Shown: positions 13,674-29,789, counted from the stretch's first letter. The stretch: DNA of 64,000 nt from Chitinophagales bacterium (GCA_965216955.1 CBDCGV010000018.1:470098-534097); one strand, 5' to 3'. Translations and numbers: made by a program. The notes: a model not told the origin generated them from the letters alone.

Positions 13674-13715
13674 ATTACAATTATTGAACTAAACTTTTAA
13701 AAAACAATCTAATTT

Positions 13716-14648: not shown

Positions 14649-14649
14649 A

Positions 14650-15024: not shown

Positions 15025-15249
15025 TTTATTTGTTTCAAAAATAACACTAATACATCAATAAACAATTGTGCCAAAAAAATAAAAACATGTTTGCCAAACA
15101 AAATATATATTGTAAAGACAATTTGACCATTTTTAACGTTAATTAAGGAACAGTTGAAAACTTTTGGCGGTTATTGTAAGTGCAATTATTATTTTCATGG
15201 AAAATGTGTCATAAAAAAAGGATGGCAGATTTTTTGATTAATAAAAGAT

Positions 15250-17790
15250 ATGGATTCAAAATTTTCTTCAAAAGTCAAAGAGGTAATTTCTTACAGTAGA
15301 GAAGAAGCCTTAAGATTAAGTCACGATAAGATTGGCATCGAACATCTGTTGCTCGGATTAATCCGAGAAGGTGATGGACTGGCCATTAAAGTGCTCAAAT
15401 CATTAGATATTGATATTGTTTTACTAAGAAATAAGATAGAAGATTCTATCAGAGACAATATAAATGCTATTCCTTCTAATTCTAATAGTCTTCCGCTCAC
15501 TAAGCAAGCAGAAAAAGTATTAAAAATTACACTTTTAGAAGCAAAGTACCATAAAAGTGATACGGTTGATACGGAGCATCTTATGTTGTCGATTCTCAAA
15601 AATAAAGACAATGTAGCTACAAGACTTTTAAATAGAATGGATGTAAACTATGAAATCTTCAGGTCTGAATTAGATTATGTAAAACAAGAAATCAGTGGTG
15701 AATTTCCTCAAGAACATCCTGAAGGAGATTTTGAAGAAGAACCTCGTGCCTCAAAGAGTTACAGTTCAAGAAAAGGTGCTTCTAAATCAAAAACTCCAGT
15801 ACTTGATAATTTTGGACGAGATATTACTAGACTGGCCGAAGAAGAAAAATTAGATCCTATTGTAGGAAGAGAGACGGAAATTGAGCGTGTTTCTCAGATT
15901 CTTAGTAGAAGAAAGAAAAACAACCCAATTCTTATTGGTGAACCTGGTGTAGGTAAAACAGCTATTGTTGAGGGACTTGCGCTCAGAATTATTCAAAAAC
16001 GAGTTTCCAGAGTACTTTTCAATAAGCGAATTGTAATGCTAGATTTAGCGGCATTAGTGGCTGGAACAAAATATAGAGGACAATTTGAAGAGCGCATGAA
16101 AGCGATCATGACGGAGCTTGAAAAGAATAGAGACGTTATACTATTTATTGATGAAATACACACTATAGTTGGTGCTGGAGGTGCAACTGGGTCTTTGGAT
16201 GCCTCTAACATTTTCAAGCCTGCTTTAGCGAGAGGGGAACTTCAATGCATTGGAGCATCTACTTTAGATGAGTATAGGCAGCATATCGAAAAAGATGGTG
16301 CGCTAGAACGCAGGTTCCAAAAGGTAATTATTGACCCTCCTTCTACGGAAGAGACAATGACCATTCTACACAATATTAAAAACAAATATGAAGACTTTCA
16401 TAATGTCAACTATACAGATGATGCTATCGAAGCATGTGTAAAATTAAGCAATCGCTATATTACAGATCGTTTTTTACCAGACAAAGCCATTGATGTAATG
16501 GATGAAGTAGGTGCACGTGTGCACTTAAAAAATATTCATGTTCCTGAAAATATCGCTAAGCTAGAAGAAGAAATTGAGGCTATCAAGGAAAAGAAAAACC
16601 AAGTAGTTAAAAATCAACGATACGAAGAAGCTGCTGAACTAAGAGATCAGGAAAAAAAGCTATTAGACAAATTAGATCAAGCTAAAATTGCCTGGGAAGA
16701 GGAAGCCAAAGCAAAAAAATATCCTGTAGATGAAGAAGACATTGCTGAAGTTGTAGCAATGATGACCGGCATTCCAGTAAATAGAATTGCTCAAAGTGAG
16801 AGCAAACGACTTCTCGAAATGGGTAAAGACTTAAAAGACTCTGTTATTGGGCAAGATGAAGCTGTAGGAAAAATAGTAAAGGCTATCCAAAGGAATAGAG
16901 TCGGGCTTAAAGATCCTAAAAAGCCTATTGGATCGTTTATTTTCTTGGGCCCTACCGGTGTAGGAAAAACTGAATTGGCCAAAGCGCTATCGCGCTATAT
17001 GTTTGACTCTGAAGATACTTTAGTTAGAATTGATATGAGTGAATACATGGAAAAATTCTCTGTTTCAAGATTAATTGGAGCACCTCCGGGTTACATCGGT
17101 TATGAAGAAGGTGGGCAACTAACAGAAAAAGTTAGAAGAAAGCCTTATTCTGTTATATTGTTAGACGAGATTGAGAAAGCACATCCAGATGTATATAATA
17201 TTTTATTACAGGTACTGGATGATGGTCAACTAACAGACGGATTGGGTAGAAAGGTAGATTTTAAAAATACCATTATTATTATGACCAGTAATATTGGGGT
17301 TCGTCAGTTAAAAGATTTTGGAGCAGGAGTAGGTTTTACCACTTCAGCCAAGAAAGACAGTATGGATACCTATACTAAAGGGGTTATTGAAAAAGCATTA
17401 TCCAAAACTTTTTCTCCGGAATTCTTAAACAGAGTAGATGATGTAGTCATCTTCAATTCTTTAGACAGAGAACATATTCACCAAATTATTGATATAGCAC
17501 TCAAAGATGTATTTAAGCGTTTAGACGATATGCAATTAACGGTTGAATTGTCGGATAAGGCAAAAGACTTTATCGCTGATAAAGGTTTTGATCCCAAATA
17601 TGGCGCAAGGCCATTGCACAGAGCTATTCAAAAATATTTAGAGGATCCTTTGGCAGAAGAAATTTTATCTTCCAGCGTTAAAGAAGGTGATACCATTGCT
17701 GTGAGTGTTAATGAAAAAGAAGAGGATGATTCTAAAAAGCTTAAATTTTCTGTAAAGAAGAAAAGAAAGAAGAAACAAGAACAGGAGTAA
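15250..17790 (+). CDS. clpC: ATP-dependent Clp protease ATP-binding subunit ClpC (class I Hsp100)
   Basis: 846 aa. Two Clp_N repeats, two AAA+ modules (GEPGVGKT and GPTGVGKT), a UVR-like middle segment ([14 protein letters not shown]) and a short M-domain. This is ClpC-type rather than ClpB-type. Confidence 0.9.
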
Positions 17791-17821
17791 TGAATGTCCT
17801 TATTTCATAAGGGCGTTCATT
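17789..17821. terminator. candidate stem-loop at the clpC / caspase-gene convergent junction
   Basis: AATGAATGTCCTT-atttcat-AAGGGCGTTCATT forms a 13-bp stem on the plus-strand RNA (two G-U pairs). It overlaps both stop codons. No clear U-tract follows. Confidence 0.3.
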
Positions 17822-20800
17822 TCGTTGTATATTTCTGAAATTAAGTTATCCATTTTATTCTCACTTCCAGAGAGTTCTATTTCTCCTACACTTTCTTTAT
17901 TTTGAAATAGTCTAGCTTTTAATTTTATTGCTCCTTCATCATTAATGGTGTACCTACCTTTAATAGAATATGCTTGAGGGTAATTATTTACATCTACAAA
18001 AATAAGTGATGCTTTCTCTCCTTTTGCAGAAGTCTCATTAAGTTTTTGATCAAGCATCGCTCCAATAGATAAGATATCTTCATAAGCGAATTCCTCTTGA
18101 AAAACCGAGCGGATAAACACGGGTTTAATGTCTGCTAATTCAATGGTCACTTTATCATCTACTTTTCCAATATAAAAGCTATTCCCTCCTTTTGGAACAG
18201 CTAAAATAGGCTCCTGCACTCCCCCTATATGAGTTGCTAAACTCGGTACTCTATCTACTGAATATTGAAACAATTGCATCACATCTACAAAATGTAACTC
18301 TCTAAGTGCTGCTCCTTTAATTCCTGCTAACAAACTGTATGTCAACAAACTCTGTCCAAAGCTACTCGCCTCATAACTAACTTTATTTTCTGCACTTCCG
18401 GTTAAAACAAACATTCCTGTTCTATCCTTTAGTCTTTCCAAAGCTCTAATCTGGCTAGAACTAACGGCTTTCTCTCCATGCAAAATATCGTCAATTGCTT
18501 TGCCTGAATTACAAGCATCTATAATAAGTACCTGCTTTTGTGCTTTGATATCATTGATCCATTGAGTTAACTCATCTGTAGAAATTGCATAGTTTTTTCT
18601 TATCGTTGGATCTGACAAATCTCCACTCTCTACATCTTTTGTCAGGTAATAAAAAGACGAATGCTCTCCTCCATAGCTAACGCCATGTCCTGACAAATAA
18701 ACGACAATAACATCATTCGATTTTGCCTTATTCATTACTTCTTCAAATGTCCTTATGATATTCTCCTTACTTGAAAGCGCCTTGCCCCCCCCATTACTTA
18801 CAAGCGTTTTTATGTAAACTCTATCTAGACCAAATAAATTTTCTCCACTTTGTTGAAGCGCATTACTAAATTGCAAGGCATCTTTATCAGCATATTTTAA
18901 ATCTAATTGATCTCCTCTATAATCCGCTGAACCAATTACAATAGCATATAAACTAGGCAGCGAAGATTTTAAGCCAAAGCCATTAGGCTTTGTATTTTGT
19001 TTCTTATCATTATCATAGTCATAGATATAGTTTAGACCCACTCTCCCACTATGTAGATTCTCAGCTTCGTTATAGGCAATAACTGCAATTTTGTTTTTAC
19101 CACTTAAAAAATAGTCTTTATAATGATTCAAATCAATTGCAATACTACCCTCCTGAATAAAACTAGATACATCCGAAACGACTTCCTTATCATTGATAAA
19201 TAATGGTACTCGACCAATGCCTCCACCTCTTTCTTTTAAAAGGATCTTTAATTCATCTACCTCAATTTCAAGATTTACTATAGGATAAAGTTGAAGTGCT
19301 CCAAGGGCTTCTACATCTCTTATAGCTTCTGTATTATAGCCCAGCAATTTTTGAAGTAGCCCAGGTTCATAGTAGCGTTCTTTCAATTGATACAAATCAA
19401 TAACCTCTTTACCTTTAAAAGAAAAGTGCAGTTGGTCAATATTTCCGCCATTTGATGCATCATACCTTCCTGCACTATCTATTACTGCCCAGTCCCCATT
19501 ATCATAAGCATAAATTTCTGCCACAGGGACAAAATCTCGGGCATTCCAAAGTATCATTTTCCCATCCCAAGAAAAGCTAATCATAAATTTCCCATCTTTA
19601 GAAAATCGCAATCCATTTACTAAATTCCCATGTTTTAAATAAGATTTAAGCACCTCTTTTTTTGAAACATCCAATAAAGCGACACTTCCATCATCATAAC
19701 CCACTACCAATTTCTGACTATTAGGAACGAATTGAACACTCTGAACATAGCTTCCTAAAGGAGCAAGTTTCCAGTGCCAACGATCATTTTTTAAATCATA
19801 AACAAACAAAGTGTCGTTATATCCACCAGTTGCAACAAATTGATCATCAGAATAGAAAGAAATATCTTGCAAAGAACTTCCTCCATCACCCTTAGGGTTA
19901 TGTATCATCAAAGTTTTTCCAGAATCAGGTGCAGTAACAAAAAATGCTTTATAAACTGTCCAGGCAATATAGTTTTTCTCATTGCTAAACTTAATGTTTT
20001 CTACACTTTGGCCCAGACTGAAACGCTCTATTAACTGATTACTTGTTTTCGTATAAATGAAAACAGAATCATCGTGTGAAACAGCAAACAAATTTGTGCT
20101 ATCACTATTGGAATAATTTAAATCGTTAAATTCATTATCAGGAAATTTTATACTCTCTTTCTCAAAAGGACTTTGTACATCACATGTCATTAATATGCTA
20201 TCCTCACCAACTGTGGCTAATCTTCTTCCATCAGGACTAAAATCAAATTGCTTAATTCTTGAATTGTGTGCATTAAGATGCTCCACTTTTCCCTGCTTTA
20301 AATTCCAATAAATTAATCCTTCTTCCCCTCCATTAAAACAAATGGTTGCATCATTTTGCGGTTGAAACTCTAAATCGTCAATCCATCTACTGCCTTTAAT
20401 TCTAAAATCCTCCTTTAATTCACTATTATAACAGGCAATATCTCTAGATGCCATGTAAATTTTTTCTCCGTTAGAATTTACTGATATCAAGTTTGACAAA
20501 TAAGGACTAACCTTTATTTTTTTTATCGTTTTTCTACCCTCAAAATCATACACCACCATAAAAGTGTCTGACTCAAAAAAATACAATAGATCGTTATTAG
20601 AAGTCGCCTTATCTACTCCACTCCCATTCATTTTAAACAGATTTTTTCTCTGTTTAAAATCCCTTACAATTAGTTCATTACTCCCCCATTTAAAATTTTC
20701 TAGAACAACGATCTCTTCGTTTATAAATACCGCATTAACAATATCTAATTCAGACTTAATTTCATCTATTAAAATACTATCCTGAATATCCCAAAGCTGA

Positions 20801-21369
20801 TAATTTCCTTCATCAGTAAAATCCTTAGTTGCCATTAATAAATACCGGTCACTAGGAGAAAAAGCCAACGCCGAAACCGTCTGCTTAGGGGTAATTTTAA
20901 ACATCTTTTCAACGCTCCATTTTTTAGAATTGTAAACATAAACTTCCCCCTTGGTATTTCCTCCAGCAATATAATTATGCTTGTTTCCACGTGCCAATGA
21001 TATGCAAGCATTAGGAAAATGAAAATTGTATGCTTTCCAATCTTCTAGTGCATACCCTAACAAAGAAGGCCCATCTATACCATAGCTTCCAGACAGTAGA
21101 TATTTAGAATCTTTAGTAAATACTAAATCATATGGGCTGTCTTTACTATATAATTGCTTTAATAGTCTTCCTGAATGCGCATCCCATACTTTAATGAGGT
21201 TGTCAATGCCTCCTGAAGCCAGATAGCGTCCATCTTCACTTAATGCAATGGCATTGATTTGATTAGTATGTCCATTTTGCAATACAATTTCTAGATCACT
21301 ACTGCTAAATCCTTTTGTGATTGAAAAGAAAAGATATGATATAAATGCGTATTTTAGTAAATGGCACAT
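17800..21369 (-). CDS. exported WD40-repeat protein with C-terminal caspase-like (peptidase C14) domain
   Basis: 1189 aa. N-terminal signal-like segment MCHLLKYAFISYLFFSITKGFSS. Clear WD40 blades include GHTNQINAIALSEDGRYLASGGIDNLIKVWD, IKQFDFSPDGRRLATVGEDSIL and VNGLRFSKDGKFMISFSWDGKMILWN. The caspase catalytic dyad context is VVYLSGHGV (His, codon 18685-18687) and LIIDACNSGKA (Cys, codon 18511-18513). Confidence 0.85.
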   Translation of the reverse strand: MCHLLKYAFISYLFFSITKGFSSSDLEIVLQNGHTNQINAIALSEDGRYLASGGIDNLIKVWDAHSGRLLKQLYSKDSPYDLVFTKDSKYLLSGSYGIDGPSLLGYALEDWKAYNFHFPNACISLARGNKHNYIAGGNTKGEVYVYNSKKWSVEKMFKITPKQTVSALAFSPSDRYLLMATKDFTDEGNYQLWDIQDSILIDEIKSELDIVNAVFINEEIVVLENFKWGSNELIVRDFKQRKNLFKMNGSGVDKATSNNDLLYFFESDTFMVVYDFEGRKTIKKIKVSPYLSNLISVNSNGEKIYMASRDIACYNSELKEDFRIKGSRWIDDLEFQPQNDATICFNGGEEGLIYWNLKQGKVEHLNAHNSRIKQFDFSPDGRRLATVGEDSILMTCDVQSPFEKESIKFPDNEFNDLNYSNSDSTNLFAVSHDDSVFIYTKTSNQLIERFSLGQSVENIKFSNEKNYIAWTVYKAFFVTAPDSGKTLMIHNPKGDGGSSLQDISFYSDDQFVATGGYNDTLFVYDLKNDRWHWKLAPLGSYVQSVQFVPNSQKLVVGYDDGSVALLDVSKKEVLKSYLKHGNLVNGLRFSKDGKFMISFSWDGKMILWNARDFVPVAEIYAYDNGDWAVIDSAGRYDASNGGNIDQLHFSFKGKEVIDLYQLKERYYEPGLLQKLLGYNTEAIRDVEALGALQLYPIVNLEIEVDELKILLKERGGGIGRVPLFINDKEVVSDVSSFIQEGSIAIDLNHYKDYFLSGKNKIAVIAYNEAENLHSGRVGLNYIYDYDNDKKQNTKPNGFGLKSSLPSLYAIVIGSADYRGDQLDLKYADKDALQFSNALQQSGENLFGLDRVYIKTLVSNGGGKALSSKENIIRTFEEVMNKAKSNDVIVVYLSGHGVSYGGEHSSFYYLTKDVESGDLSDPTIRKNYAISTDELTQWINDIKAQKQVLIIDACNSGKAIDDILHGEKAVSSSQIRALERLKDRTGMFVLTGSAENKVSYEASSFGQSLLTYSLLAGIKGAALRELHFVDVMQLFQYSVDRVPSLATHIGGVQEPILAVPKGGNSFYIGKVDDKVTIELADIKPVFIRSVFQEEFAYEDILSIGAMLDQKLNETSAKGEKASLIFVDVNNYPQAYSIKGRYTINDEGAIKLKARLFQNKESVGEIELSGSENKMDNLISEIYNEMNALMK
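18280..18951 (-). other. caspase/C14 catalytic domain of the WD40-caspase protein (approximate bounds)
   Basis: LYAIVIGSADY...YLSGHG...IIDACNSG...FVLTGSAENKVSYE. By my count the dyad residues are His895 and Cys953. Confidence 0.75.
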
Positions 21370-21439
21370 TATTTGAACTTGTAGCTAATATTAAATTTTA
21401 TTTCAATATTTGTGCCATGCTAATTTAAACTTAAAAGTT

Positions 21440-24400
21440 ATGAAAACGAATTTAATCACTGCAACTTTAGCATTCCTGTTTTTGATACAAATATCTTCTG
21501 CACAAAGGACAGGACTTTTATTCAATGATGAAGCATATAAAAAAGTACCATTAGTCGATAAAGCCACTTTAGGCTGGACAGCTACCGACTTGCCCAGCAG
21601 TACCTCGTTAAAATCCTATGCCCCTATTCCGGGAAATCAGGGTGACTATGGTACTTGTGTAGGCTGGTCAACGGCATATGCAGCACTAACCATTGTACAT
21701 GCAAAAAAATACAAGTTAACTGATAAAGAACAAATAACTGCCTCTGCATTCTGCCCCTATTATCTATACGATCAATTTAAAGGAGAATACGATTTATTTT
21801 GTCAAACAGGTGGTTTTTTTGAAGATGCGCTAGATGTGCTTTATAAAAAAGGAGCCAAAAAATATTACTTACCTGAATTTTCATGTTATTCAAGTGCTAC
21901 TTCACATCCTGATGAAATTGCAAAAAACTTCCGCATCGACAACTATTTCAGACTTTTTGACTTTGAACAAACTCAAAATACAGAAACAGGATATTTAGTA
22001 GAAAAAATCACAAATGTTAAGTCCGCTCTTGCAGACGGTAATCCGGTTTTATTTGGGATGTTTGTTCCTAACTCTTTTATTAACTTATTAGGTGATGACA
22101 ATTGGACTCCGACATATAGTGAAAAACTAAACTACAACCAACAAGCAGGTCATGCTATGGTTATTGTTGGGTATGATAATTACAAGTATGGTGGTGCATT
22201 TCAAATTATGAATAGCTGGGGTACTGAATGGGGGAAAGATGGTTTTGCATGGATAAAATATGATGACTTTAAGAAATTTGTACATACAGCATTTTATTTT
22301 GAAATTGACAATAGTTACACCCCTTCTTCTGGATGTTTATTAGGAGATTGCTCCAACTCCTATAGCCGCTACAAATGGCCCAACGGAGAAACTTATGAAG
22401 GAGAAATGGTAGATGGATATTTGACAGGTTCTGGCATTTACTACTGGAACAATGGAGAAGTTCATGTTGGAGAATGGAAAAATGGGAAAAGACATGGTGA
22501 AGGAATCAGTACTTCAGCATATGGATACATTACTAGAGGTTTTTGGAAGGATGATGTTTATGTAGGCAAAGAAGAACCCGATTATACAGATTACACCACT
22601 ATTGTTGAGACTAAAGAGGAGGAAGAAAAAAAGGAAACGGAAGAAGAAAAAGAAGTTGAAACCGATTGGAACAGCATTTTTAACGACATTATTGATGGTG
22701 AAACAGAAATAAAAGATGATATAGCTAACGGATGTATAAGTGGAGACTGTGATAATGGATATGGAAAATTTATTTACTCAGATGGAGATATTTATGAAGG
22801 CTATTTTAAAAGCAGTTATAGAAACGGTTTTGGCAAATATCAATATATAGAAGGTGATGTATATACTGGAGAATGGTCGTGGAATACAAGGTCGGGGTTA
22901 GGGCATTATGTTTGGCCTAGCGGAAACATTTATATTGGGTATTGGAAAAACAACTCCCAACATGGCAAAGGCACCAAGTTTCATAAAGATGGTACCACAA
23001 ATGCAGGGGAATGGGAAAATGGCACCTTCAAGGATCCCAATAATACATTTGGGTTTGCCGGCAATAAAAAAGATATAGAAAAGACTCAAAACAGTTATAG
23101 TAGAGGTATTCATATGCCAGAAGCTGAAGAGTATAAGAGCAACGTGAAAGCCAGTCCTATCCTAAAACAAAATGGATTTGGAATCCCCAAGGGTGGATTA
23201 GAACAAAAAATGAATAGTGATTACAACACCGTTAAACGAGTAGTTACACATATTTTAAAGGCATCTGGAAGATCGGATTTAAGAAATCCTCCTATTAAAA
23301 TTATAGATGATCCTAACGAAGTTGCATTTATCCATCCCAAAACAGGAATTAATGTAAGCCATAAGTTTTTGGAAGTTTGTAAAAGTTTTGGGAAAGATGC
23401 AGAAACAGCATTGGCCTTTGTTTTAGCACATGAATTAGGTCATTATATTAATGACCATTTTTTTTCTTTTGAATACGGTTCTGCCTATGCAAGCACTGAA
23501 TGGGGGCAACAAATGAAAAAAGCCTATATGCCTATTAAGGATATGGGATACTATGAATCTCAAGCGGATGAATTTGGCCTATTTGTAAGCTATACAGCTG
23601 GTTACAATACATTAGAAATTGGCCCTCAGGTAATCGACCGTATATATGAAGCATTTAGTCTTCCCGAAGAACTCCCAGGTTATCCCCCTAAATCTTTCCG
23701 AAAGGATCAGATAGAAATTGCTAAAAAAAAAGTCCAAGACTTAATTCCGGTATTTGAAGCGGGAAATATTCTTAGTCTTTTAAGTGGTGCTGCTATTGGT
23801 AATGAAAAAATGGAAGTAACAAAAGCAGCCATTAGTTGTTATGACCACATTATACAAAGTAAAATCACTACCGCAGAGATGTACAATAATATTGGTATCA
23901 ATTATCTGCACATGGCCTTAACTGAAAAAGCAGATGAAATTAAGTTGGCATTCCCTATAGAAATAGACTTCAAAAGCAGATTATATATTAAATCCGTAAC
24001 AGGAAGCGGTAAAGGCCCAGGAGATCCTGATTTAGGCTGGGGAGATGATGAAGATACCGAAGAACCAGACCCTGATGCCCTTTTTAAAGAATATCTTTAC
24101 CAAGCAGAAGCTTTTTTAGACAAAGCACTTTCTATAGATAAAAATTATTTACCCGCAAATAACAATAAGGTTATCGTGGCTATTTTAAGTCAAGATCTTG
24201 ACGAAGCGGAGTATCTTGCAAAAAAAGCGGCTAAAAAAGCCAAGCAATTTCAAAGCAAAATTGACGAAAGAAATGCCCACGATTTATTATACATCATTTA
24301 CATGCTTAACGATGATACAGAAACTGCCTTAAAATATTACAATCTAGCTACAGCTATGAATAGCCCTTATACTGTATTTAATGAGAAGAAAATTAAAAAT

Positions 24401-24907
24401 CCAAAGTACAACCCACAATCTGAAATAGATAACAGTAATGCACAGGGTCTCGCAGATGTAAAATTTGCTGTTGATCCAAGAGATTATCAACGTCCTTTTG
24501 ATAATGACCAAGAAAAAATAAATGGAATGACGTTATGGGATATTACTAATCAATATATTTATGATGGTAAAGACATACAAACATGGAACGTTGGCAACGA
24601 CAACAAAGCACAAATTGGAAAAGACATTATAGATGATGGAGAGCTGGTTATTTTCCTACGACTTGATAGAGGTCAGTTCAACGGAGCCTATTCATTTTAT
24701 CAAGTGGACAACACTTTTACAGGTAATACGATGAAAGACATAAAAGTTGGGAATAACAGTGAACAGGTCGTTACTGCTTACAATAATCCACATCACGTTG
24801 TATCCTCAACACAACATGACTACTGGGTATATATAAAAAACAACATCATATTCAAAATTGATCAAAAAGACCAAGTTGATGGATGGATATATTATGACAT
24901 CAATTAA
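21440..24907 (+). CDS. exported mosaic protease: papain-like C1 peptidase + MORN array + MORN array + HExxH zincin (M48/BepA-like) + TPR-like helices + C-terminal beta-rich domain
   Basis: 1155 aa from the ATG at 21440; the track's TTG at 21410 is rejected. Signal peptide MKTNLITATLAFLFLIQISSAQ. C1 triad context NQGDYGTCVGWS (Cys codon 21656-21658), GHAMVIVGYD and MNSWGTEWGKDGF. MORN repeats (YEGEMVDGYLTGSG, HVGEWKNGKRHGEG, YTGEWSWNTRSGLG, YIGYWKNNSQHGKG). AHELGH at 23429-23443 with a downstream YYESQADEFG. Confidence 0.8.
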   Translation: MKTNLITATLAFLFLIQISSAQRTGLLFNDEAYKKVPLVDKATLGWTATDLPSSTSLKSYAPIPGNQGDYGTCVGWSTAYAALTIVHAKKYKLTDKEQITASAFCPYYLYDQFKGEYDLFCQTGGFFEDALDVLYKKGAKKYYLPEFSCYSSATSHPDEIAKNFRIDNYFRLFDFEQTQNTETGYLVEKITNVKSALADGNPVLFGMFVPNSFINLLGDDNWTPTYSEKLNYNQQAGHAMVIVGYDNYKYGGAFQIMNSWGTEWGKDGFAWIKYDDFKKFVHTAFYFEIDNSYTPSSGCLLGDCSNSYSRYKWPNGETYEGEMVDGYLTGSGIYYWNNGEVHVGEWKNGKRHGEGISTSAYGYITRGFWKDDVYVGKEEPDYTDYTTIVETKEEEEKKETEEEKEVETDWNSIFNDIIDGETEIKDDIANGCISGDCDNGYGKFIYSDGDIYEGYFKSSYRNGFGKYQYIEGDVYTGEWSWNTRSGLGHYVWPSGNIYIGYWKNNSQHGKGTKFHKDGTTNAGEWENGTFKDPNNTFGFAGNKKDIEKTQNSYSRGIHMPEAEEYKSNVKASPILKQNGFGIPKGGLEQKMNSDYNTVKRVVTHILKASGRSDLRNPPIKIIDDPNEVAFIHPKTGINVSHKFLEVCKSFGKDAETALAFVLAHELGHYINDHFFSFEYGSAYASTEWGQQMKKAYMPIKDMGYYESQADEFGLFVSYTAGYNTLEIGPQVIDRIYEAFSLPEELPGYPPKSFRKDQIEIAKKKVQDLIPVFEAGNILSLLSGAAIGNEKMEVTKAAISCYDHIIQSKITTAEMYNNIGINYLHMALTEKADEIKLAFPIEIDFKSRLYIKSVTGSGKGPGDPDLGWGDDEDTEEPDPDALFKEYLYQAEAFLDKALSIDKNYLPANNNKVIVAILSQDLDEAEYLAKKAAKKAKQFQSKIDERNAHDLLYIIYMLNDDTETALKYYNLATAMNSPYTVFNEKKIKNPKYNPQSEIDNSNAQGLADVKFAVDPRDYQRPFDNDQEKINGMTLWDITNQYIYDGKDIQTWNVGNDNKAQIGKDIIDDGELVIFLRLDRGQFNGAYSFYQVDNTFTGNTMKDIKVGNNSEQVVTAYNNPHHVVSSTQHDYWVYIKNNIIFKIDQKDQVDGWIYYDIN
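21587..22294 (+). other. papain-like (C1) peptidase domain
   Basis: Gln/Cys (NQGDYGTCVGWS), His (QQAGHAMVIVGY) and Asn-Ser-Trp (IMNSWGTEWG) occur in canonical order and spacing. Confidence 0.8.
22331..22570 (+). repeat. MORN repeat array 1 (protein-level repeats), opened by a GC-x2-GDC-x-N-x-Y motif
   Basis: GCLLGDCSNSYSRYKWPNGETYEGEMVDGYLTGSGIYYWNNGEVHVGEWKNGKRHGEG...FWKDDVYVGK. Confidence 0.75.
22730..23029 (+). repeat. MORN repeat array 2, opened by the same Cys motif
   Basis: GCISGDCDNGYGKFIYSDGDIYEGYFKSSYRNGFGKYQYIEGDVYTGEWSWNTRSGLGHYVWPSGNIYIGYWKNNSQHGKGTKFHKDGTTNAGEWENGTF. Confidence 0.75.
23237..23629 (+). other. zincin metallopeptidase-like domain (HExxH ... ExxADxxG)
   Basis: LAFVLAHELGHYINDH is followed 38 residues after the second His by YYESQADEFGLF, the pattern seen in M48-type peptidases. 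Confidence 0.6.
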
Positions 24908-24917
24908 ACCATTTACC

Positions 24918-26432
24918 ATGAAAACAACAATTTTCGCTTTCTTCATACTTCTTGGAACCTTCAAAATAAGTAGTGCTCAAGATTTTGTTATAGAGTATGA
25001 TTTTTTAAATAAAACCACAAAATATTTTAAAATAAGCAAGAAGGGAGATACTACCGAAACTACAAAACCAATAGCAAAACAAAATCAGGATATTCAACTA
25101 AAGGTCATCAATTACAATGAGTTTGCTTTGGTAACGGAGGCAGACATAACGAATGAAGAGATAATTGAGTCTTCCAACCCTTTTAGTATGTTTGGAGCAC
25201 TCTCCCCTATTTTTAATACCGTGTCAAAAAGTGTATTATCAGGAATGTTCGATGGAACCGGTGCTGATGTAGATGACATTGACTTTGGATTTGGTTATAG
25301 TTCAAAAGGCAACAATGATGAACGTCTCAAAGCTGCGTTAAAACAATATGCACTTCTTAGTTCAAAAATGAATGAATTAGATGCATTAGAAGATGCGATA
25401 CAATCTATTAATTATGCCATAGGTCGTGTCAAAAAGATCGTTTACAATCCAAATGCTAATCCAAATGATATCAAAGGTCAAACGAAAAGTATTGTTCGTG
25501 ATGTTTTAAATAATGGAGACAAGCTTACCTACATTAATTTTCAAAGAAAATACAACACATTAACTTCCAGAATGAGCGAACTTAGTCGAGCTGCTAAACA
25601 AAATGGCAATAGAGTACTTGCCTATGAAGAGCATGAAGATGCAAATTTAGGTTTTAGTTCTAAAGAAAGTGCGCTCACCTATGAAGAGGTAAGTGCAGAA
25701 ACAGAAGAGATGCTAAAACTTATCGAAGAATTTGAAAACGCTTATACTTCTGAAGAATTACAAGAAAAATTAGATGAACTCCAAGAATTATATGATGCAG
25801 TAAATACTTCAAATTTCACTTATACAACAAGTGCGACTGCCGAAGGAGATCGAACAAACATTAATGTCTCCTTCTATGAACACCTTCCTGATGGAGTTGA
25901 CAAGGGGAAACTTAGCAACTCTCTTAAAAGTAATAATAAAGGAGATGAAGACGAGAATTTTTTGAGAAGCGAATCTTTTAAAGTCCGAGTTAAAGGTGGT
26001 CTTAAAATCGTCCCTAGTGTTGGTTTAACTTTCCCCACCTACTTTAACCAAAACAAAGAGTTTTATACTATTGGCGACACGCTAATTGCTCAAACAGGAG
26101 GAGATAATTTTGTTCCAAATATTACTGCTATGATTAATTTCTATCCTTACACAGGTAGAGCAATAAATTTTGGAGGTAGTTTCGGGATTGGCATTCCAGT
26201 AAAAGCAGAAAAATTCGCCCCACAGTATATGATGGGTGGAGCATTGGTATTAGGTCAAAAATATCGAATTATTTTAAGTGCTGGTATGTCTGTCGGTCCG
26301 GTTACAACTTTAAGACCCGGATATGAAGTAGGAGAAAATATCAGTGCCTTTGATGATTTGGAGACTGACTCCAAGTATAAAGTTGGATTTTATTCAGGCA
26401 TCTCCTTTACATTGGGTGTAGGTAGTGAATAA
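24918..26432 (+). CDS. hypothetical exported protein with coiled-coil middle and beta-barrel-like C-terminal third
   Basis: 504 aa from the ATG at 24918 (10 nt after the upstream stop); the track start at 24858 would overlap the upstream gene. Signal peptide MKTTIFAFFILLGTFKISSAQ. The centre is helical and Glu/Lys/Leu-rich. The C-terminus has alternating-hydrophobic strands ending KVGFYSGISFTLGVGSE. Confidence 0.6.
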   Translation: MKTTIFAFFILLGTFKISSAQDFVIEYDFLNKTTKYFKISKKGDTTETTKPIAKQNQDIQLKVINYNEFALVTEADITNEEIIESSNPFSMFGALSPIFNTVSKSVLSGMFDGTGADVDDIDFGFGYSSKGNNDERLKAALKQYALLSSKMNELDALEDAIQSINYAIGRVKKIVYNPNANPNDIKGQTKSIVRDVLNNGDKLTYINFQRKYNTLTSRMSELSRAAKQNGNRVLAYEEHEDANLGFSSKESALTYEEVSAETEEMLKLIEEFENAYTSEELQEKLDELQELYDAVNTSNFTYTTSATAEGDRTNINVSFYEHLPDGVDKGKLSNSLKSNNKGDEDENFLRSESFKVRVKGGLKIVPSVGLTFPTYFNQNKEFYTIGDTLIAQTGGDNFVPNITAMINFYPYTGRAINFGGSFGIGIPVKAEKFAPQYMMGGALVLGQKYRIILSAGMSVGPVTTLRPGYEVGENISAFDDLETDSKYKVGFYSGISFTLGVGSE

Positions 26433-26446
26433 ATAAATCCAATCAA

Positions 26447-27115
26447 ATGGTTTCAAACCTTAAATTCATTTTATTTCTTTTACTAATTATTTCATTTCAA
26501 GCATTTTCTCAGGAAAAAAGAGAAAAAGATGGTGCTTTCAAAAATTATAATGATACGACAGAAATAGCTATTCCAAATTTTAAGATTCACAAGGGATTCT
26601 ATAAAACTTTTGATGATTTAAAAAATGGAAAAGTAATGTCTGGTATTGATTTCAGTGTCAAAAGACAATTAGGTACAACTGAAGTACTTTTAAAATTTGA
26701 AAAAAAGAGTGACGCAAATATAATCAGGAAAGATACTTTCTACGCTGTATCTGATGGACACAGTCTTTATGTTAACCCTATCATTGCCGACAAATTGAAC
26801 CACGCATTTACAGTCAATAAATTTTACACTGTTAATTACATTGGCAGATATATTTATTATGAAATAAAGGGTGTTGTTATTGGACTATTGAGTGCTATTG
26901 CAAGTAACAATGGTGCATACGTAGTAAATATTAATGGTAAAAAAGGCATTAGCTACGCACTAAATAGAGAAACGATACTTAAAATCATTGGCTCAGATAA
27001 ACAACTAAAAAATGAAGTGCTTGGAAAAAAAAGAATCGCATTAAAAGAGTGTAAGGAAATTTTAAAAAGATATTGCGAAAAAAACGTAAAAGAAATTAGA
27101 GAAATAGCTAAATAA
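26447..27115 (+). CDS. hypothetical exported protein
   Basis: 222 aa, 14 nt after the upstream stop. Signal peptide MVSNLKFILFLLLIISFQAFSQ. No recognisable motif. Confidence 0.55.
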   Translation: MVSNLKFILFLLLIISFQAFSQEKREKDGAFKNYNDTTEIAIPNFKIHKGFYKTFDDLKNGKVMSGIDFSVKRQLGTTEVLLKFEKKSDANIIRKDTFYAVSDGHSLYVNPIIADKLNHAFTVNKFYTVNYIGRYIYYEIKGVVIGLLSAIASNNGAYVVNINGKKGISYALNRETILKIIGSDKQLKNEVLGKKRIALKECKEILKRYCEKNVKEIREIAK

Positions 27116-27159
27116 TTTTTGAATTGACAACCTCCTCATCTTATTGTTATTTTTATACT

Positions 27160-28371
27160 ATGACAAAATTTATAATTACATCTATAATTGGTTGTTTAGT
27201 ATTTCTTTCATGCAGCAAAGATGAAAACCAAACAAACGATCCTCAAGAGGAGGTTTTCGAAATTGACGATTACAATTATAAAACGGATATTCCCGATATG
27301 ATTGACTTCTATGAACAAGATCCTATTCAATACTATGCAGAATTTGGACTTCCAAGTATTACTAAGTCTGCATCGATTCTAAATGAATATGGAGATAACC
27401 CAATAGACGCTTTTGATTTATTACTTGCCTACTTCAGTGATAGCATGGCTCAAAAAGCAATAAACGATCAACTTTGGAGTAGAGCATTTATTCAAAAAAT
27501 GCAAAACGCAAGTGGAAATCTAGCAGAAAAATGGACTCATACAATAATACATTTCGGAAATCAGGTAAACCAACTATATATCCAAAATCCAGATGATCCT
27601 CAATTAGACCAACTGTATAAAATCTTAGGCGATGGAATACAACTTGTCATGCCAAATGAGTTTTTTATAGATATGATGATGATTGAAGATATTTCTCTAT
27701 ATGAATTTCCTATTACTAATGATTGGTTAGCTTTGACTTGTGGCTGCGGAATGGATGATGATGATGAAATAATAGAATGCGATGAAGAAGAAGTAGACAC
27801 CTTTGATCAAGAACCCAATGAAGTGAGAAAATGGAGTGAAGTAGACGAACCATTTATACCCCCACATAGATTTGATGGCAAATGTGCTACACTTGCTGCC
27901 GGTAACTGTCTGGTAAAACTAAAACAAATAGAAGATAAGATAGATATAGATATCTGGAAAGATTTATCAAAAAAATTGGGTGCCAAAAAAAGAGGCGGTG
28001 TTGATAGAAGAGCCACCAATGCTTATTTTAAATCACTCGGATTTGGTGTAACAGTTGCTGCAGATAAAAAAGGTGAAACTGCTGTTCAACAAGCAGCTAA
28101 GGCTATGGCTAAAGGATGTGATGTCAAGCTTTCTTTTGCAAACAAAGCCAAAAAAAAATATCATGTTGAATACGTTACTGATATTAAGGTCGATAAAGAT
28201 GACCCTAGTAAGGCGGTAATTACCTCTATCTCATGGGGCGTCAAATCAACACAAGACGTAAAAAATGGAAAGTTTACTAATAAGGAACCCAATAAAACAA
28301 GAAATGAGAATAGTTGGTTGTCGCAAGAAGGTGACGCTATTATTAGAATATTTTGCCCTGTAAAAAAATAA
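27160..28371 (+). CDS. hypothetical lipoprotein with acidic Cys-containing linker and C-terminal candidate Cys/His (papain-fold-like) domain
   Basis: 403 aa from the ATG at 27160. Lipobox VFLSCSKDENQ. Linker CGCGMDDDDEIIECDEEEVD. The C-terminal domain has GKCATLAAGNCLVKL (Cys at a predicted helix start) and KKYHVEYVTDIKVDKDDP (His then Asp). Confidence 0.55.
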   Translation: MTKFIITSIIGCLVFLSCSKDENQTNDPQEEVFEIDDYNYKTDIPDMIDFYEQDPIQYYAEFGLPSITKSASILNEYGDNPIDAFDLLLAYFSDSMAQKAINDQLWSRAFIQKMQNASGNLAEKWTHTIIHFGNQVNQLYIQNPDDPQLDQLYKILGDGIQLVMPNEFFIDMMMIEDISLYEFPITNDWLALTCGCGMDDDDEIIECDEEEVDTFDQEPNEVRKWSEVDEPFIPPHRFDGKCATLAAGNCLVKLKQIEDKIDIDIWKDLSKKLGAKKRGGVDRRATNAYFKSLGFGVTVAADKKGETAVQQAAKAMAKGCDVKLSFANKAKKKYHVEYVTDIKVDKDDPSKAVITSISWGVKSTQDVKNGKFTNKEPNKTRNENSWLSQEGDAIIRIFCPVKK

Positions 28372-28478: not shown

Positions 28479-29789
28479 ATGAATAGAATAAACATACTAT
28501 TGATATTGAGTTGCTTCTTTTTTTTATCATGTAATGAAGAAGATAATGAAGGCAATACAACACCTCCTTCGATGAATACAGACCTAAATATATTACTTAT
28601 CATAGCAGATGATATGGGCAAGGACGCTACTAATGGTTATACAGAAGGTAGTATTAAACCCAACACACCTCATTTGGATAGTCTGATGAACAACGGGTTG
28701 AGATTTAACAATTTTTGGACCTATACCGTTTGTTCTCCAACAAGAGCAAGTATTTTTACCGGAAAGTATGGTTATAGTACTAAAGTGCGCTCTCAATTTG
28801 ACCATATTGAAACTTCCGAAACTTCTTTACAAGCTTATATCAATCAGGAAACGGGCAACAAATATGCTACTGCTATGATTGGAAAGTGGCACTTAGGAAA
28901 TGGAAACAATTTCAATCCAGAAACCATGGGTATAGATTATTATGCAGGTATTATCTCTGGAAGTGTACAAAGTTATTATTCGTGGCAGCTTACGGAAGAT
29001 GGAGTTACAAATACTGAAACGGAATATACTACTACAAAACTTACAGACTTAGCTATTGATTGGATTGACCAGCAAACAAAACCCTGGTTTTTATGGTTGG
29101 CATATAATGCACCACATACACCATTTCATCTACCACCTTCAGAGATGCACTCGCAAAATGATTTATCATCTGATCAAAATGAAATTGACGCTAATCCACT
29201 TCCTTATTACATCGCCAGTATTGAAGCTATGGATTATCAAATTGGACAATTAATAGACCAAATAAATACAGATGAAAGGGCAAGTACAATCATTATTTTT
29301 ATTGGAGATAATGGTTCTCCTGGACGTGTCGTACAATCACCATATAGTAGAAGAAAAGCTAAGGGTTCGCTCTACCAAGGTGGTATTAATAGCCCCATGA
29401 TCGTCTCGGGAAAAAATGTTAATAGAACAGGTGACGAGAATGCATTAATTAATTCAACAGATTTGTTTGCAACTATCGCTGCCCTATCAGGAGTGAATAT
29501 TGATTCAATCAATAATAGCAAAGATTTTTCATCTTTATTAACCACCTCTTCTTCAAATTTTAGGAACTACACCTATTCGGAATATAAATACGATGACGAT
29601 AACATTGATGAATGGTGCATAAGAAACAATACGCATAAGCTAATTGAGAAAGCAGATGGATCAATGGAGTTATATAATTTAGAAATAGACCCCTATGAAA
29701 ACACGGATCTGCTAATATCAACATTATCAGCTACAGATTCTACCGCTAAAAATATACTTATTAATCAATTAGCGACAATTAGAGATTAA
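28479..29789 (+). CDS. sulfatase (Cys-type, formylglycine-dependent) lipoprotein
   Basis: 436 aa. Lipobox FFLSCNEE. Metal site LLIIADDMG. Sulfatase signature CSPTRASIFTGKY. GKWHLG motif. Confidence 0.88.
   Translation: MNRINILLILSCFFFLSCNEEDNEGNTTPPSMNTDLNILLIIADDMGKDATNGYTEGSIKPNTPHLDSLMNNGLRFNNFWTYTVCSPTRASIFTGKYGYSTKVRSQFDHIETSETSLQAYINQETGNKYATAMIGKWHLGNGNNFNPETMGIDYYAGIISGSVQSYYSWQLTEDGVTNTETEYTTTKLTDLAIDWIDQQTKPWFLWLAYNAPHTPFHLPPSEMHSQNDLSSDQNEIDANPLPYYIASIEAMDYQIGQLIDQINTDERASTIIIFIGDNGSPGRVVQSPYSRRKAKGSLYQGGINSPMIVSGKNVNRTGDENALINSTDLFATIAALSGVNIDSINNSKDFSSLLTTSSSNFRNYTYSEYKYDDDNIDEWCIRNNTHKLIEKADGSMELYNLEIDPYENTDLLISTLSATDSTAKNILINQLATIRD

What the first reader, a model, noticed from the sequence alone, without database searches (positions are those of the whole stretch)
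21440..24907. Single 1155-aa polypeptide combining a papain-like C1 peptidase, two MORN arrays and a BepA-like zincin/TPR module
Seen in sequence, in order: signal peptide; a complete C1 catalytic set (Gln/Cys, His, Asn-Ser-Trp); MORN array 1; the acidic linker KEEEEKKETEEEKEVE; MORN array 2; HELGH with ESQADEFG 38 residues downstream; TPR-like helices (e.g. AEAFLDKALSIDKNYLPANNN); and a ~200-aa beta-rich C-terminus. Each MORN array opens with the same Cys motif (GCLLGDCSNSY and GCISGDCDNGY), suggesting a duplicated module with a possible disulfide or metal site. A cysteine protease and a metalloprotease in one exported chain, separated by membrane- or lipid-binding-type repeats, is an unusual architecture. 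I do not recognise it as a described family.
Basis: partly seen in the sequence, partly recalled or inferred. Interest (0 to 1): 0.7.

Follow-up and report, generated by a model that had tools for sequence, protein, structure and literature searches.

The report
Fused papain-zincin protease in caspase cassette
This is a real, exported bacterial protein that joins a papain-type cysteine protease and a BepA-like zinc protease; the two halves are encoded by neighbouring genes in related bacteria, and the gene always sits beside a secreted caspase-like protease, which points to an undescribed multi-protease system in the cell envelope.

Summary
Window 21440-24907 (+) encodes one 1155-aa protein. 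Its parts, in order, are a Sec signal peptide, a C1 papain-like domain (Q67/C73/H238/N258-S-W), two CxxGxC-capped MORN modules split by an acidic linker, an M48 gluzincin core (H664-E-x-x-H668, E706-x-x-A-D), TPR helices and a ~130-aa alpha/beta end domain. It is not a frameshift artefact: eight independent full-length orthologues (44-49% identity) keep the architecture and all catalytic residues.

The context adds three things. (1) In related Bacteroidota, C1-MORN and M48-TPR are separate adjacent genes, so this protein is a Rosetta-stone fusion. (2) In 6 of 6 loci the gene lies between a divergent, exported WD40-caspase and a ~510-aa protein with a probable small outer-membrane-type barrel. 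(3) The M48-TPR-end-domain half belongs to a large unnamed family (more than 1000 clusters at 50% identity). In other lineages that half is fused directly to caspase domains.

My best reading is one arm of an exported, caspase-centred multi-protease system acting in the periplasm or at the outer membrane. Its biological role is inferred, not shown. All domains are known; the architecture and cassette appear undescribed. Interest is moderate to high.

The parts
21440..21502 (+). Sec (signal peptidase I) signal peptide, residues 1-21, with predicted cleavage SSA|Q22
   Evidence: Read from the sequence. All six orthologues have a hydrophobic N-terminus ending A/S-Q. This fits the Bacteroidetes Q-rule (PMC5837995, PMC10653852). 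There is no lipobox Cys.
21503..21616 (+). Conserved N-terminal extension, residues 22-59 (QRTGLLF..Y..V....LG), ahead of the mature-type C1 start. It may be a short pro-segment.
   Evidence: Conserved in the full-length and the short C1-MORN homologues. No I29 prodomain hit in Pfam. The pro-segment role is inferred.
21617..22315 (+). Papain-like C1 cysteine peptidase domain, residues 60-292. Catalytic residues: Q67 (21638-21640), C73 (21656-21658), H238 (22151-22153), N258-S-W (22211-22219).
   Evidence: Pfam PF00112 above cut-off. Xylellain 3ois E=1e-12 with the catalytic residues aligned. All are invariant in six orthologues.
22331..22570 (+). Cys-capped MORN module 1, residues 298-377 (C299-x4-C304 followed by about 3 MORN repeats)
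   Evidence: Pfam MORN. MORN1 structure 6t4d aligns to residues 317-356. The Cys pair is invariant. The same module recurs 2-7 times in related proteins.
22571..22726 (+). Acidic, low-complexity linker, residues 378-429, including KEEEEKKETEEEKEVE at 392-407
   Evidence: Sequence. Its length and sequence vary among orthologues while it stays acidic.
22727..23032 (+). Cys-capped MORN module 2, residues 430-531 (C432-x4-C437 followed by 4 MORN repeats)
   Evidence: Pfam MORN, best stretch 475-496. MORN1 structures align to residues 439-531, E about 1e-23. The Cys pair is invariant.
23033..23197 (+). Interdomain linker, residues 532-586, predicted disordered
   Evidence: pLDDT below 50 for model residues 1-45. 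Poorly conserved.
23198..23659 (+). M48-type gluzincin catalytic core, residues 587-740. Zinc site: H664 (23429-23431), E665, H668 (23441-23443) and E706 (23555-23557) within E-x-x-A-D.
   Evidence: Pfam PF01435 above cut-off. Alignment to the M48 peptidase 3c37. H, E, H, E, A and D are invariant in 14-16 sequences down to 23% identity, and in 32 representatives of the wider family. Foldseek top hit is BepA.
23660..24400 (+). Helical TPR-like domain, residues 741-987, with a disordered acidic insert at about 845-874
   Evidence: AlphaFold helices, pLDDT mostly 80-95. Profile hits to canonical TPR proteins at E about 4e-11. Foldseek hits to BepA, LGN and OGT TPR domains.
24509..24904 (+). C-terminal alpha/beta domain, residues 1024-1155. 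It is conserved across the whole M48-TPR family and may be BamE/BLIP-like.
   Evidence: AlphaFold pLDDT 80-93. Profile matches run to the last residue in most family representatives. Pfam gives only sub-threshold hits: BamE E=0.0036 and DUF4309 E=0.018 and 0.036.
17800..21369 (-). Divergently transcribed partner gene: exported WD40 beta-propellers plus a caspase-type (C14) peptidase, 1189 aa, catalytic H895/C953
   Evidence: Pfam WD40 and Peptidase_C14. Orthologue present at the same position in 6 of 6 loci, 38-44% identity. Signal peptide and catalytic dyad conserved.
24918..26432 (+). Downstream partner gene 'G3', 504 aa, exported: beta-sandwich, long helical bundle and a C-terminal small beta-barrel
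   Evidence: Lies 10-64 nt after the protease gene in 6 of 6 loci, 43-47% identity. Orphan family of 11 clusters. AlphaFold model pLDDT 70. Only weak Foldseek resemblance to the 8-stranded outer-membrane barrels Ail, OmpA and OprH, E 0.035-0.6.

Best explanation
The ORF is a genuine single gene for a Sec-exported, two-headed protease. It is the fusion of two proteins that related Bacteroidota encode as adjacent genes: a papain-like C1 peptidase carrying Cys-capped MORN docking modules, and a BepA-like M48 zinc peptidase with a TPR cradle and a small alpha/beta end domain. It forms a conserved three-gene cassette with an exported WD40-caspase and a ~510-aa exported protein that has a probable small outer-membrane-type barrel.

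Proposed mechanism:
1. After signal-peptide cleavage (SSA|Q) the protein stays in the periplasm or at the outer membrane.
2. The MORN modules, which MORN-caspase proteins of related bacteria also carry, act as protein-protein docking or spacer elements.
3. The TPR and end domains hold a partner or substrate against the zinc site, as in BepA.
4. The cysteine and zinc active sites act on the same target, or on each other and on the caspase partner, in a regulated envelope proteolysis or activation cascade.

What is shown: the gene structure, export signals, intact catalytic sites, the fusion relationship and the linkage to caspases. What is inferred: the localisation, the role of MORN, the substrates, the cascade logic and the biological purpose.
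For: Real single gene:
- Eight full-length homologues of 1137-1164 aa at 44-49% identity come from independent assemblies.

Catalytic competence:
- Q67/C73/H238/N258-S-W, H664/E665/H668/E706-x-x-A-D and both CxxGxC pairs are invariant in six orthologues.
- The zinc-site residues are invariant down to 23% identity.

Domain identities:
- Pfam C1, MORN and M48 hits are all above their gathering cut-offs.
- 3ois matches at E=1e-12, and 3c37 aligns the M48 motifs.
- The AlphaFold model of residues 545-1155 has pLDDT 76 and pTM 0.75. Its best PDB match is BepA 6sar/6ait.

Export:
- Signal peptides ending A/S|Q are present on all cassette proteins in all loci (Q-rule, PMC5837995).
- Pfam and NCBIfam report no T9SS C-terminal domain hit on it.

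Fusion of operon partners:
- L018: C1-MORN (678 aa), then 4 nt, then M48-TPR (550 aa, HMM E=1.7e-142).
- L019: C1-MORN (653 aa), then 58 nt, then M48-TPR (559 aa, E=2e-125).
- L014: C1-MORN lies divergent from caspase-TPR followed by M48-TPR (548 aa, E=2e-99).

Link to caspases:
- A WD40-caspase is the divergent neighbour in 6 of 6 fused loci.
- A stand-alone paralogue of the M48-TPR half lies just behind the caspase gene in L001, L004 and L005.
- 6 of 32 sampled representatives of the M48-TPR family are fused directly to Peptidase_C14.
- L013 has two MORN-caspase genes followed by a homologous C1 peptidase.
- L010 has a clan-CD C25 peptidase and a trypsin followed by M48-TPR.
Against: - No experiment or expression data exist, and substrates are unknown.
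- Periplasmic or outer-membrane localisation rests only on a signal peptide and the absence of recognised sorting domains.
- The Pfam M48 match covers only the N-terminal 81 of 186 profile positions, and Foldseek TM-scores to BepA are low (0.17-0.26). The resemblance is one of domain composition, not a superimposable structure.
- The G3 barrel assignment is weak (E of 0.035 or worse, model pTM 0.46).
- L019 shows the C1-MORN/M48-TPR pair with no caspase within 9 kb, so the caspase is not obligatory.
- The interdomain geometry of the full chain was not modelled.
- MORN function in bacteria is unknown.
Confidence: 0.55

Rival explanations
1. It is a secreted nutritional protease: a digestive enzyme with two catalytic heads, released to degrade external protein. 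This would fit the protein-hydrolysing lifestyle of many Chitinophagales and Saprospiraceae. The neighbouring proteases would simply be further digestive enzymes.
For: Signal peptides on all cassette proteins. Several proteases are clustered. L018 and L019 have T9SS-tailed genes nearby. The homologues whose source gives an organism name come from Chitinophagales or Bacteroidota MAGs.
Against: Pfam and NCBIfam report no T9SS C-terminal domain hit on this protein, the caspase or G3, so there is no recognised route across the outer membrane. The partner proteins carry WD40 or TPR interaction arrays and MORN docking modules, which are typical of regulated rather than bulk proteolysis. The fixed three-gene order across less than 50% identity argues for a complex.
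Confidence: 0.15
2. It is a BepA-type housekeeping factor for outer-membrane protein biogenesis and quality control. The M48-TPR half would work at the BAM machinery as E. coli BepA does, G3 would be an outer-membrane client or partner, and the C1 head would add a second degradative activity.
For: BepA is the top structural match. There is a weak BamE-like signal in the end domain. G3 ends in a small beta-barrel that faintly resembles outer-membrane barrels.
Against: No hit to the NCBIfam BepA model for this protein, and only 1 of 32 family members hits it weakly. The fused form occurs in only about 11 clusters, and G3 in 11. That is an accessory, not a housekeeping, distribution. The family's consistent partner is a caspase-type protease, which has no place in the BepA paradigm.
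Confidence: 0.12
3. It is an envelope-located conflict or suicide module. The caspase, papain-like and zinc proteases would be effectors that dismantle the cell envelope, or attack an invader or competitor, once the WD40/TPR sensors are triggered. This would be analogous to the caspase-containing conflict systems of multicellular bacteria.
For: Caspases with WD40 or TPR arrays, heavy domain shuffling and a patchy distribution are hallmarks of such systems (PMC7159879, PMC3501461). L012 couples a G3 homologue and a caspase-TPR protein with a DUF6531/YD-shell protein. The modules recombine freely.
Against: No NTPase or other switch component is conserved in the cassette; the ClpC-like neighbour is specific to the window. 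No significant PADLOC system match. All components are exported, unlike the described cytoplasmic systems, and the source paper mentions neither MORN nor M48.
Confidence: 0.15
4. It is an artefact: two or more genes joined by a sequencing or assembly frameshift. Alternatively, it is a decayed protein whose protease domains are inactive scaffolds.
For: The two halves are separate genes in L014, L018 and L019.
Against: Eight independent full-length homologues keep one uninterrupted frame with a 50-residue linker between the halves. Every catalytic residue of both proteases is invariant. Chance survival of the frame has a probability of about 2e-37.
Confidence: 0.02

Closest known systems
E. coli BepA (YfgC), periplasmic M48 metalloprotease with a C-terminal TPR domain (PDB 6sar, 6ait)
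   Same: An exported HExxH...ExxAD gluzincin followed by a TPR domain. It is the best PDB match of the modelled C-terminal half (Foldseek E=4e-4). The Pfam M48 hit is above cut-off.
   Different: The catalytic core is much smaller: 38 residues between HExxH and the Glu ligand, and only 81 of 186 Pfam positions matched. TM-scores are 0.17-0.26. There is no hit to the NCBIfam BepA model. It has an extra alpha/beta end domain, is fused to C1-MORN, and its partner is a caspase rather than BAM.
Soluble M48 peptidase from the PDB (3c37_A, 'Peptidase, M48 family')
   Same: The active-site helix VLAHE(L/I)(G/N)H and the glutamate-helix motif YE(S/N)QAD...AGYN align directly.
   Different: The pairwise E-value is only 0.036. 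3c37 is a 253-aa stand-alone enzyme with no TPR, end domain or fusion partner.
Xylellain, C1 papain-family cysteine protease of Xylella fastidiosa (PDB 3ois)
   Same: The closest solved relative of the N-terminal head (E=1e-12 over residues 67-276). The Gln, Cys, His and Asn-Ser-Trp residues are in register. It is a bacterial enzyme with a short N-terminal extension in place of an I29 prodomain (this last point is from my own knowledge of the structure).
   Different: Xylellain is a single-domain enzyme. The protein here is exported and carries two MORN modules and a second protease.
MORN-repeat proteins (apicomplexan/trypanosome MORN1, PDB 6t4d/6t4r/6t69; junctophilins)
   Same: Canonical 23-residue MORN repeats. 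Residues 439-531 align to MORN1 at E about 1e-23.
   Different: The repeats here come in short arrays of about 3-4, each opened by an invariant C-x-x-G-x-C cap, in exported bacterial proteins. Lipid binding, often assumed for MORN repeats, was re-evaluated in the MORN1 study, which documents dimerisation (PMC7725318).
Bacterial metacaspases/orthocaspases with WD40, TPR or FGE-sulfatase domains (Asplund-Samuelsson et al. 2012, PMC3501461)
   Same: The partner gene is a C14 caspase homologue with WD40 propellers. Relatives of the M48-TPR half are fused to caspase plus FGE-sulfatase, a combination that survey catalogued.
   Different: That survey mentions no M48 or MORN association. Here the caspase is exported and is tied to two other protease classes.

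Membership tests
Peptidase family C1 (papain-like, clan CA) | Profile match above the curated threshold | tested here: met
   PF00112: 31.9 bits against a cut-off of 20.7. The Pfam stretch is partial (residues 181-275), but 3ois aligns residues 67-276 at E=1e-12.
Peptidase family C1 (papain-like, clan CA) | Catalytic Cys-His dyad with an oxyanion-hole Gln and an orienting Asn (Q19/C25/H159/N175 in papain numbering) | tested here: met
   Q67, C73, H238 and N258-S-W align with xylellain and are invariant in six orthologues.
Peptidase family C1 (papain-like, clan CA) | I29-type inhibitory prodomain (typical of C1A zymogens, not universal) | tested here: not met
   No I29 hit in Pfam. Only a conserved ~38-residue N-terminal extension is present.
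Peptidase family M48 (gluzincin, clan MA) | HExxH zinc-binding motif on the active-site helix | tested here: met
   H664-E-L-G-H668. Invariant in 16 homologues and in 32 representatives of the wider family.
Peptidase family M48 (gluzincin, clan MA) | Third zinc ligand Glu in a downstream E-x-x-A-D helix | tested here: met
   E706-S-Q-A-D aligns with YENQAD of the M48 peptidase 3c37. E, A and D are invariant.
Peptidase family M48 (gluzincin, clan MA) | Profile match above the curated threshold | tested here: met
   PF01435: 28.6 bits against a cut-off of 20.3, covering profile positions 5-81 of 186 only. 14 of 32 family representatives also match.
BepA (beta-barrel assembly-enhancing protease) orthologue | Match to the curated BepA model (NF052400) and a superimposable M48+TPR structure | tested here: not met
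   No NCBIfam hit for this protein, and 1 of 32 relatives hits at E=4e-4. Foldseek ranks BepA first, but TM is 0.17-0.26 and rmsd 18-20 A.
BepA (beta-barrel assembly-enhancing protease) orthologue | Acts on outer-membrane proteins at the BAM complex | not testable with these tools
   Needs biochemistry or genetics.
MORN repeat proteins | Tandem ~23-residue YxGxWxxGxxxGxG repeats matching PF02493 | tested here: met
   58.9 bits against a cut-off of 22.5. Three Pfam stretches in total; the motif scan finds one repeat in array 1 and three in array 2. MORN1 structures match at E about 1e-23.
TPR proteins | 34-residue helix-turn-helix repeats recognised by TPR profiles | tested here: met
   The family profile hits consensus TPR proteins at E=4e-11. 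Orthologues carry TPR_2 hits. The model shows paired helices over residues 878-986.
Type IX secretion cargo | C-terminal Por_Secre_tail / T9SS sorting domain | tested here: not met
   Pfam and NCBIfam report no T9SS C-terminal domain hit at E<=0.01. The C-terminal domain is alpha/beta rather than an Ig-like sandwich.
Known anti-phage defence systems (PADLOC) | Significant match of the cassette proteins to system models | tested here: not met
   Only a generic caspase hit and a marginal capP zincin-motif hit (E=0.001). G3, G4 and G5 have none.
NTP-dependent caspase conflict systems (Kaur et al. 2020) | A STAND/MoxR-type NTPase switch encoded with the effector | tested here: not met
   No NTPase among the conserved cassette genes in six loci. 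The ClpC-like gene is found only in the window. The paper mentions neither MORN nor M48.

The most novel reading that the evidence does not exclude
Bacteroidota, and through the wider M48-TPR family other phyla too, possess a previously unrecognised exported proteolytic cascade. A caspase-type protease, a papain-type protease and a BepA-like zinc protease would be docked together through MORN, WD40 and TPR modules at the outer membrane, and would activate one another to remodel or destroy the cell envelope on a signal. That would be an extracytoplasmic counterpart of caspase cascades. This fusion protein would be the Rosetta stone that reveals it.
Probability: 0.25. Interest if true: 0.85.

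Novelty: new variant of a known kind. Interest (0 to 1): 0.6.

Why it matters
The function of bacterial caspase homologues is a long-standing open question. Almost nothing is known about those that are exported.

This locus offers a compact, conserved and experimentally tractable set. It contains one caspase, one two-headed protease and one barrel protein. Three independent kinds of evidence (gene order, gene fusion and shared docking modules) tie the components together.

The locus also gives a first functional handle on a large protein family that has no curated name: more than 1000 clusters of ~550-aa M48-TPR proteins. In addition, it shows that MORN repeats form a distinct Cys-capped module in exported bacterial proteases.

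If the proteases act in sequence, this would be a new type of regulated proteolysis in the bacterial envelope.

Tried and rejected
- The first genome-collection scan failed because the alignment was too divergent.
The metagenome scan with the G3 profile gave only three distant or fragmented G3-like loci with no clear partners. No systematic neighbourhood census was therefore possible.
- The organism could not be named. Nine of the ten window proteins looked up are in the collection, with no source name for any window protein; eight are singleton clusters, one falls in a three-member cluster, and the G3 sequence as submitted was not found. The target protein P0001 is also an unnamed singleton. 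The proteins found lie on one 729,570-bp contig.
- The exact-sequence contig look-up for the window protein itself found nothing.
- A PDB profile search with the mixed alignment A1 was dominated by MORN hits and said nothing about the zincin.
- Pfam on the isolated end domain gave only sub-threshold, inconsistent hits: BamE, DUF4309, DUF7738 and others. I keep 'BamE/BLIP-like' as a guess only.
- I considered T9SS cargo, a known defence system, an NTPase-driven conflict system and a BepA orthologue. Each was rejected on a tested defining feature.
The 'two active sites facing one chamber' idea stays untested.

Full report

Window 21440-24907 (+) is one open reading frame of 1155 codons plus a stop. 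An in-frame TTG at 21410 would add ten residues. All orthologues begin at the MK(R/T) position, so the ATG at 21440 is the likely start. At the window's base composition, a stop-free run of this length has a probability of about 2e-37.

- GTCVGWS at residue 71.
- NSWG at 258.
- GCLLGDCSNSY at 298.
- The acidic stretch KEEEEKKETEEEKEVE at 392.
- GCISGDCDNGY at 431.
- HELGH at 664.
- ESQADEFG at 706, exactly 38 residues after the second His.
- AEAFLDKALSIDKNYLPANNN at 889.

**2. Domain identities**

Pfam reports three families above their gathering cut-offs:

| Family | Score (bits) | Cut-off (bits) | Note |
|---|---|---|---|
| MORN | 58.9 | 22.5 | |
| Peptidase_C1 | 31.9 | 20.7 | |
| Peptidase_M48 | 28.6 | 20.3 | residues 596-674, first 81 of 186 profile positions |

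Evidence for each region:
- **C1 head.** The closest solved relative is xylellain (3ois, E=1e-12 over residues 67-276). Gln67, Cys73, His238 and Asn258-Ser-Trp are in register with its catalytic residues.
- **MORN arrays.** They align to MORN1 crystal structures at E about 1e-23.
- **Zincin.** It aligns to the M48 peptidase 3c37, matching VLAHELGH to VLAHEINH and YESQAD...AGYN to YENQAD...AGYN. E706 is therefore the third zinc ligand of an E-x-x-A-D helix.
- **C-terminal half.** An AlphaFold model of residues 545-1155 has mean pLDDT 76 and pTM 0.75. It shows a small beta-sheet with an active-site helix and a glutamate helix, then paired helices, then a compact alpha/beta domain (residues 1024-1155).
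- **Fold search.** The best PDB match is E. coli BepA (6sar E=4e-4, then 6ait), followed by TPR proteins.
- **TPR.** A profile of the half hits consensus TPR proteins at E=4e-11.
- **End domain.** It gives only sub-threshold Pfam hits (BamE at 0.0036, DUF4309), so its fold class stays open.

**3. Not an artefact, and not decayed**

A search of 5.8 billion proteins finds eight full-length homologues of 1137-1164 aa at 44-49% identity, plus three truncated ones. They come from independent assemblies. Where named, they are called 'C1 family peptidase' of Chitinophagales or Bacteroidota MAGs.

In six orthologues every catalytic residue of both proteases is invariant, and so are the four Cys of the two CxxGxC caps. 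The zinc-site residues H, E, H, E, A and D remain invariant in 14-16 sequences down to 23% identity, and in 32 representatives of the wider family. Both heads are therefore under selection as enzymes.

**4. The MORN module**

The unit 'C-x-x-G-x-C, then about three MORN repeats' (85-135 residues) occurs in several architectures:
- Twice in the fused proteins.
- Two or three times in ~650-680-aa C1-MORN proteins that lack the zincin.
- Three to seven times, mostly four to seven, in MORN-caspase proteins of Bacteroidia, starting directly after the signal peptide.

Because these are exported proteins, a disulfide cap is plausible but untested. The 'lipid-binding' label for MORN repeats is contested. 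The MORN1 structural study re-evaluated that property and documents dimerisation (PMC7725318).

**5. Genomic context, the main addition**

In the window and in five other loci (L001-L005) the gene sits in the same cassette:
- A divergently transcribed WD40-caspase of 1175-1203 aa (window 17800-21369, minus strand), 38-44% identical, with a 64-96-nt intergenic gap.
- The fused protease gene.
- After 10-64 nt, a 504-525-aa protein called 'G3' (window 24918-26432), 43-47% identical.

The flanks beyond these genes differ between loci. The caspase His/Cys dyad (H895/C953) is invariant.

All cassette proteins in all loci carry signal peptides ending A/S|Q. This is the Bacteroidetes Q-rule for signal-peptidase-I substrates (PMC5837995, PMC10653852).

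G3 belongs to an orphan family of 11 clusters; six of them lie on contigs whose lengths match contigs that carry the protease homologues. Its model (pLDDT 70) has a beta-sandwich, a long helical bundle and a C-terminal small beta-barrel. That barrel resembles Ail, OmpA and OprH only weakly, with E values of 0.035-0.6.

**6. The protein is a Rosetta-stone fusion**

In three loci the two halves are separate genes:

| Locus | Arrangement |
|---|---|
| L018 | C1-MORN (678 aa), 4 nt, stand-alone M48-TPR (550 aa, HMM E=1.7e-142). On the divergent strand, a second M48-TPR paralogue and a 1296-aa TPR-caspase. |
| L019 | C1-MORN (653 aa), 58 nt, M48-TPR (559 aa, E=2e-125). |
| L014 | C1-MORN divergent from a 969-aa caspase-TPR protein, which is followed by an M48-TPR protein (548 aa, E=2e-99). 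|

In L001, L004 and L005 a stand-alone paralogue of the C-terminal half lies just behind the WD40-caspase gene, in addition to the fused copy. It is 617-646 aa and 37-38% identical to residues 567-1154.

**7. The C-terminal half belongs to a large unnamed family tied to caspases**

An exhaustive profile search finds 1022 clusters at 50% identity with E<=1e-30. Almost all are stand-alone proteins of 540-560 aa, matched from the zincin to the last residue.

No NCBIfam model names the sampled members, and Pfam sees only the partial M48 and TPR matches. Of 32 sampled representatives, six are fused to a Peptidase_C14 caspase domain, and five of those also carry an FGE-sulfatase domain. P0144, for example, has the module at 51-573 and the caspase at 593-816.

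Three further loci fit the same pattern:
- A Gemmatimonadota locus has a C25 (clan CD) peptidase and a trypsin followed by an M48-TPR gene.
- L013 has two MORN-caspase genes followed by a C1 peptidase homologous to the head studied here.
- A distant G3 homologue is followed by a caspase-TPR protein.

Gene order, gene fusion and shared docking modules therefore connect four elements: the C1 peptidase, the MORN module, M48-TPR and the caspase.

**8. How it most likely works**

Shown:
- The protein carries an export signal.
- It has two intact active sites.
- It is a fusion of operon partners.
- It is linked to an exported caspase.

Inferred:
- The mature protein (from Q22) stays in the periplasm or at the outer membrane. 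It has no lipobox, and Pfam and NCBIfam report no T9SS C-terminal domain hit.
- The MORN modules dock or space the heads.
- The TPR and end domains present a partner or substrate to the zinc site, as in BepA.
- The three proteases act on a common target or on one another, as a zymogen-type cascade.
- The Lys-rich acidic linkers are plausible processing sites.

The biological purpose is unknown. I favour regulated envelope proteolysis over nutrition or housekeeping. The cassette is rare and accessory. Its partners carry interaction arrays, and none of its proteins carries a recognised signal for crossing the outer membrane.

**9. Rivals**

- **Nutritional secreted protease.** Possible, but no secretion tail is present.
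- **BepA-type housekeeping.** BepA is the top fold hit. However, there is no BepA-model hit, the distribution is accessory, and the caspase partner does not fit.
- **Envelope conflict or suicide module.** This is attractive given the caspase/WD40/TPR shuffling (PMC7159879, PMC3501461). However, no NTPase is conserved in the cassette and there is no PADLOC match. The source paper mentions neither MORN nor M48.
- **Artefact or pseudo-enzyme.** Effectively refuted.

**10. Novelty and verdict**

Every domain belongs to a known family, and NCBI already labels relatives 'C1 family peptidase'. I found no description of three things: the fused architecture, the Cys-capped MORN module, or the caspase/C1-MORN/M48-TPR/G3 cassette.

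I rate it a new variant of a known kind, with interest 0.6. It is BepA-like but not a BepA orthologue. The lipid-binding role of MORN is doubtful.

**Limits of this analysis**
- No full-length model was made.
- No systematic neighbourhood census was possible.

Noticed in passing
window 17800-21369 (-): A 1189-aa exported protein with WD40 beta-propellers (roughly residues 30-620) and a C14 caspase domain (808-1054, catalytic H895/C953). It is the conserved divergent partner of the protease gene in 6 of 6 loci. Exported WD40-caspases are themselves barely studied.
   Followed up: partly
window 24918-26432 (+): The orphan protein 'G3' (504 aa, 11 clusters in the database) has no Pfam, NCBIfam or PADLOC hit. 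Its model shows a beta-sandwich, a long helical bundle and a C-terminal small beta-barrel that only weakly resembles Ail/OmpA/OprH. The ORF listing gives a TTG start at 24858, overlapping the protease gene, but orthologues support the ATG at 24918.
   Followed up: partly
window 26447-27115 (+) and 27124-28371 (+): Two further exported proteins follow G3. One is 222 aa with a signal peptide. The other is ~403-415 aa, a probable lipoprotein (LSC lipobox) with an acidic Cys-rich stretch CGCGMDDDDEIIECDEEE. Neither has any family hit, and neither has a homologue in the other cassette loci.
   Followed up: partly
window 28479-29789 (+) and 31034-32191 (-); L001 18759-21442 and 3384-4430; L004 16766-19600 and 1259-2311: Sulfatase and saccharopine-dehydrogenase-like genes lie near the cassette in the window. 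In L001 and L004 they lie there too, together with an FGE-sulfatase gene. Elsewhere the M48-TPR module is fused to caspase plus an FGE-sulfatase domain. This may be leftover synteny or a functional hint; it is unresolved.
   Followed up: no
P0144, P0177, P0182, P0204, P0232, P0242 (representatives): Proteins of 828-1103 aa with the M48-TPR module at the N-terminus followed by a Peptidase_C14 domain. Five also have an FGE-sulfatase domain, and one a PEGA domain. This is a zincin-caspase fusion, which the 2012 survey of prokaryotic caspase homologues (PMC3501461) does not mention.
   Followed up: partly
L012 2666-8674: A distant G3 homologue (444 aa) is followed by a 996-aa caspase-TPR protein and a DUF6531/YD-shell (Rhs-like) protein. 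This hints that G3-caspase pairs occur in toxin-like contexts.
   Followed up: no
L010 2005-9641: A Gemmatimonadota MAG has a 1400-aa Peptidase_C25 (gingipain family), a 497-aa trypsin-like protease and a 546-aa M48-TPR family member in a row on one strand. This is the same theme with different protease classes.
   Followed up: no
window 12309-17790: An NtrC-type sigma-54 activator (12309-13673), a metallo-beta-lactamase-fold protein (13716-14648), a STAS-domain protein (14650-15024) and a ClpC/ClpB-type double AAA+ ATPase (15250-17790) flank the cassette. None of them is conserved next to it in other loci.
   Followed up: partly
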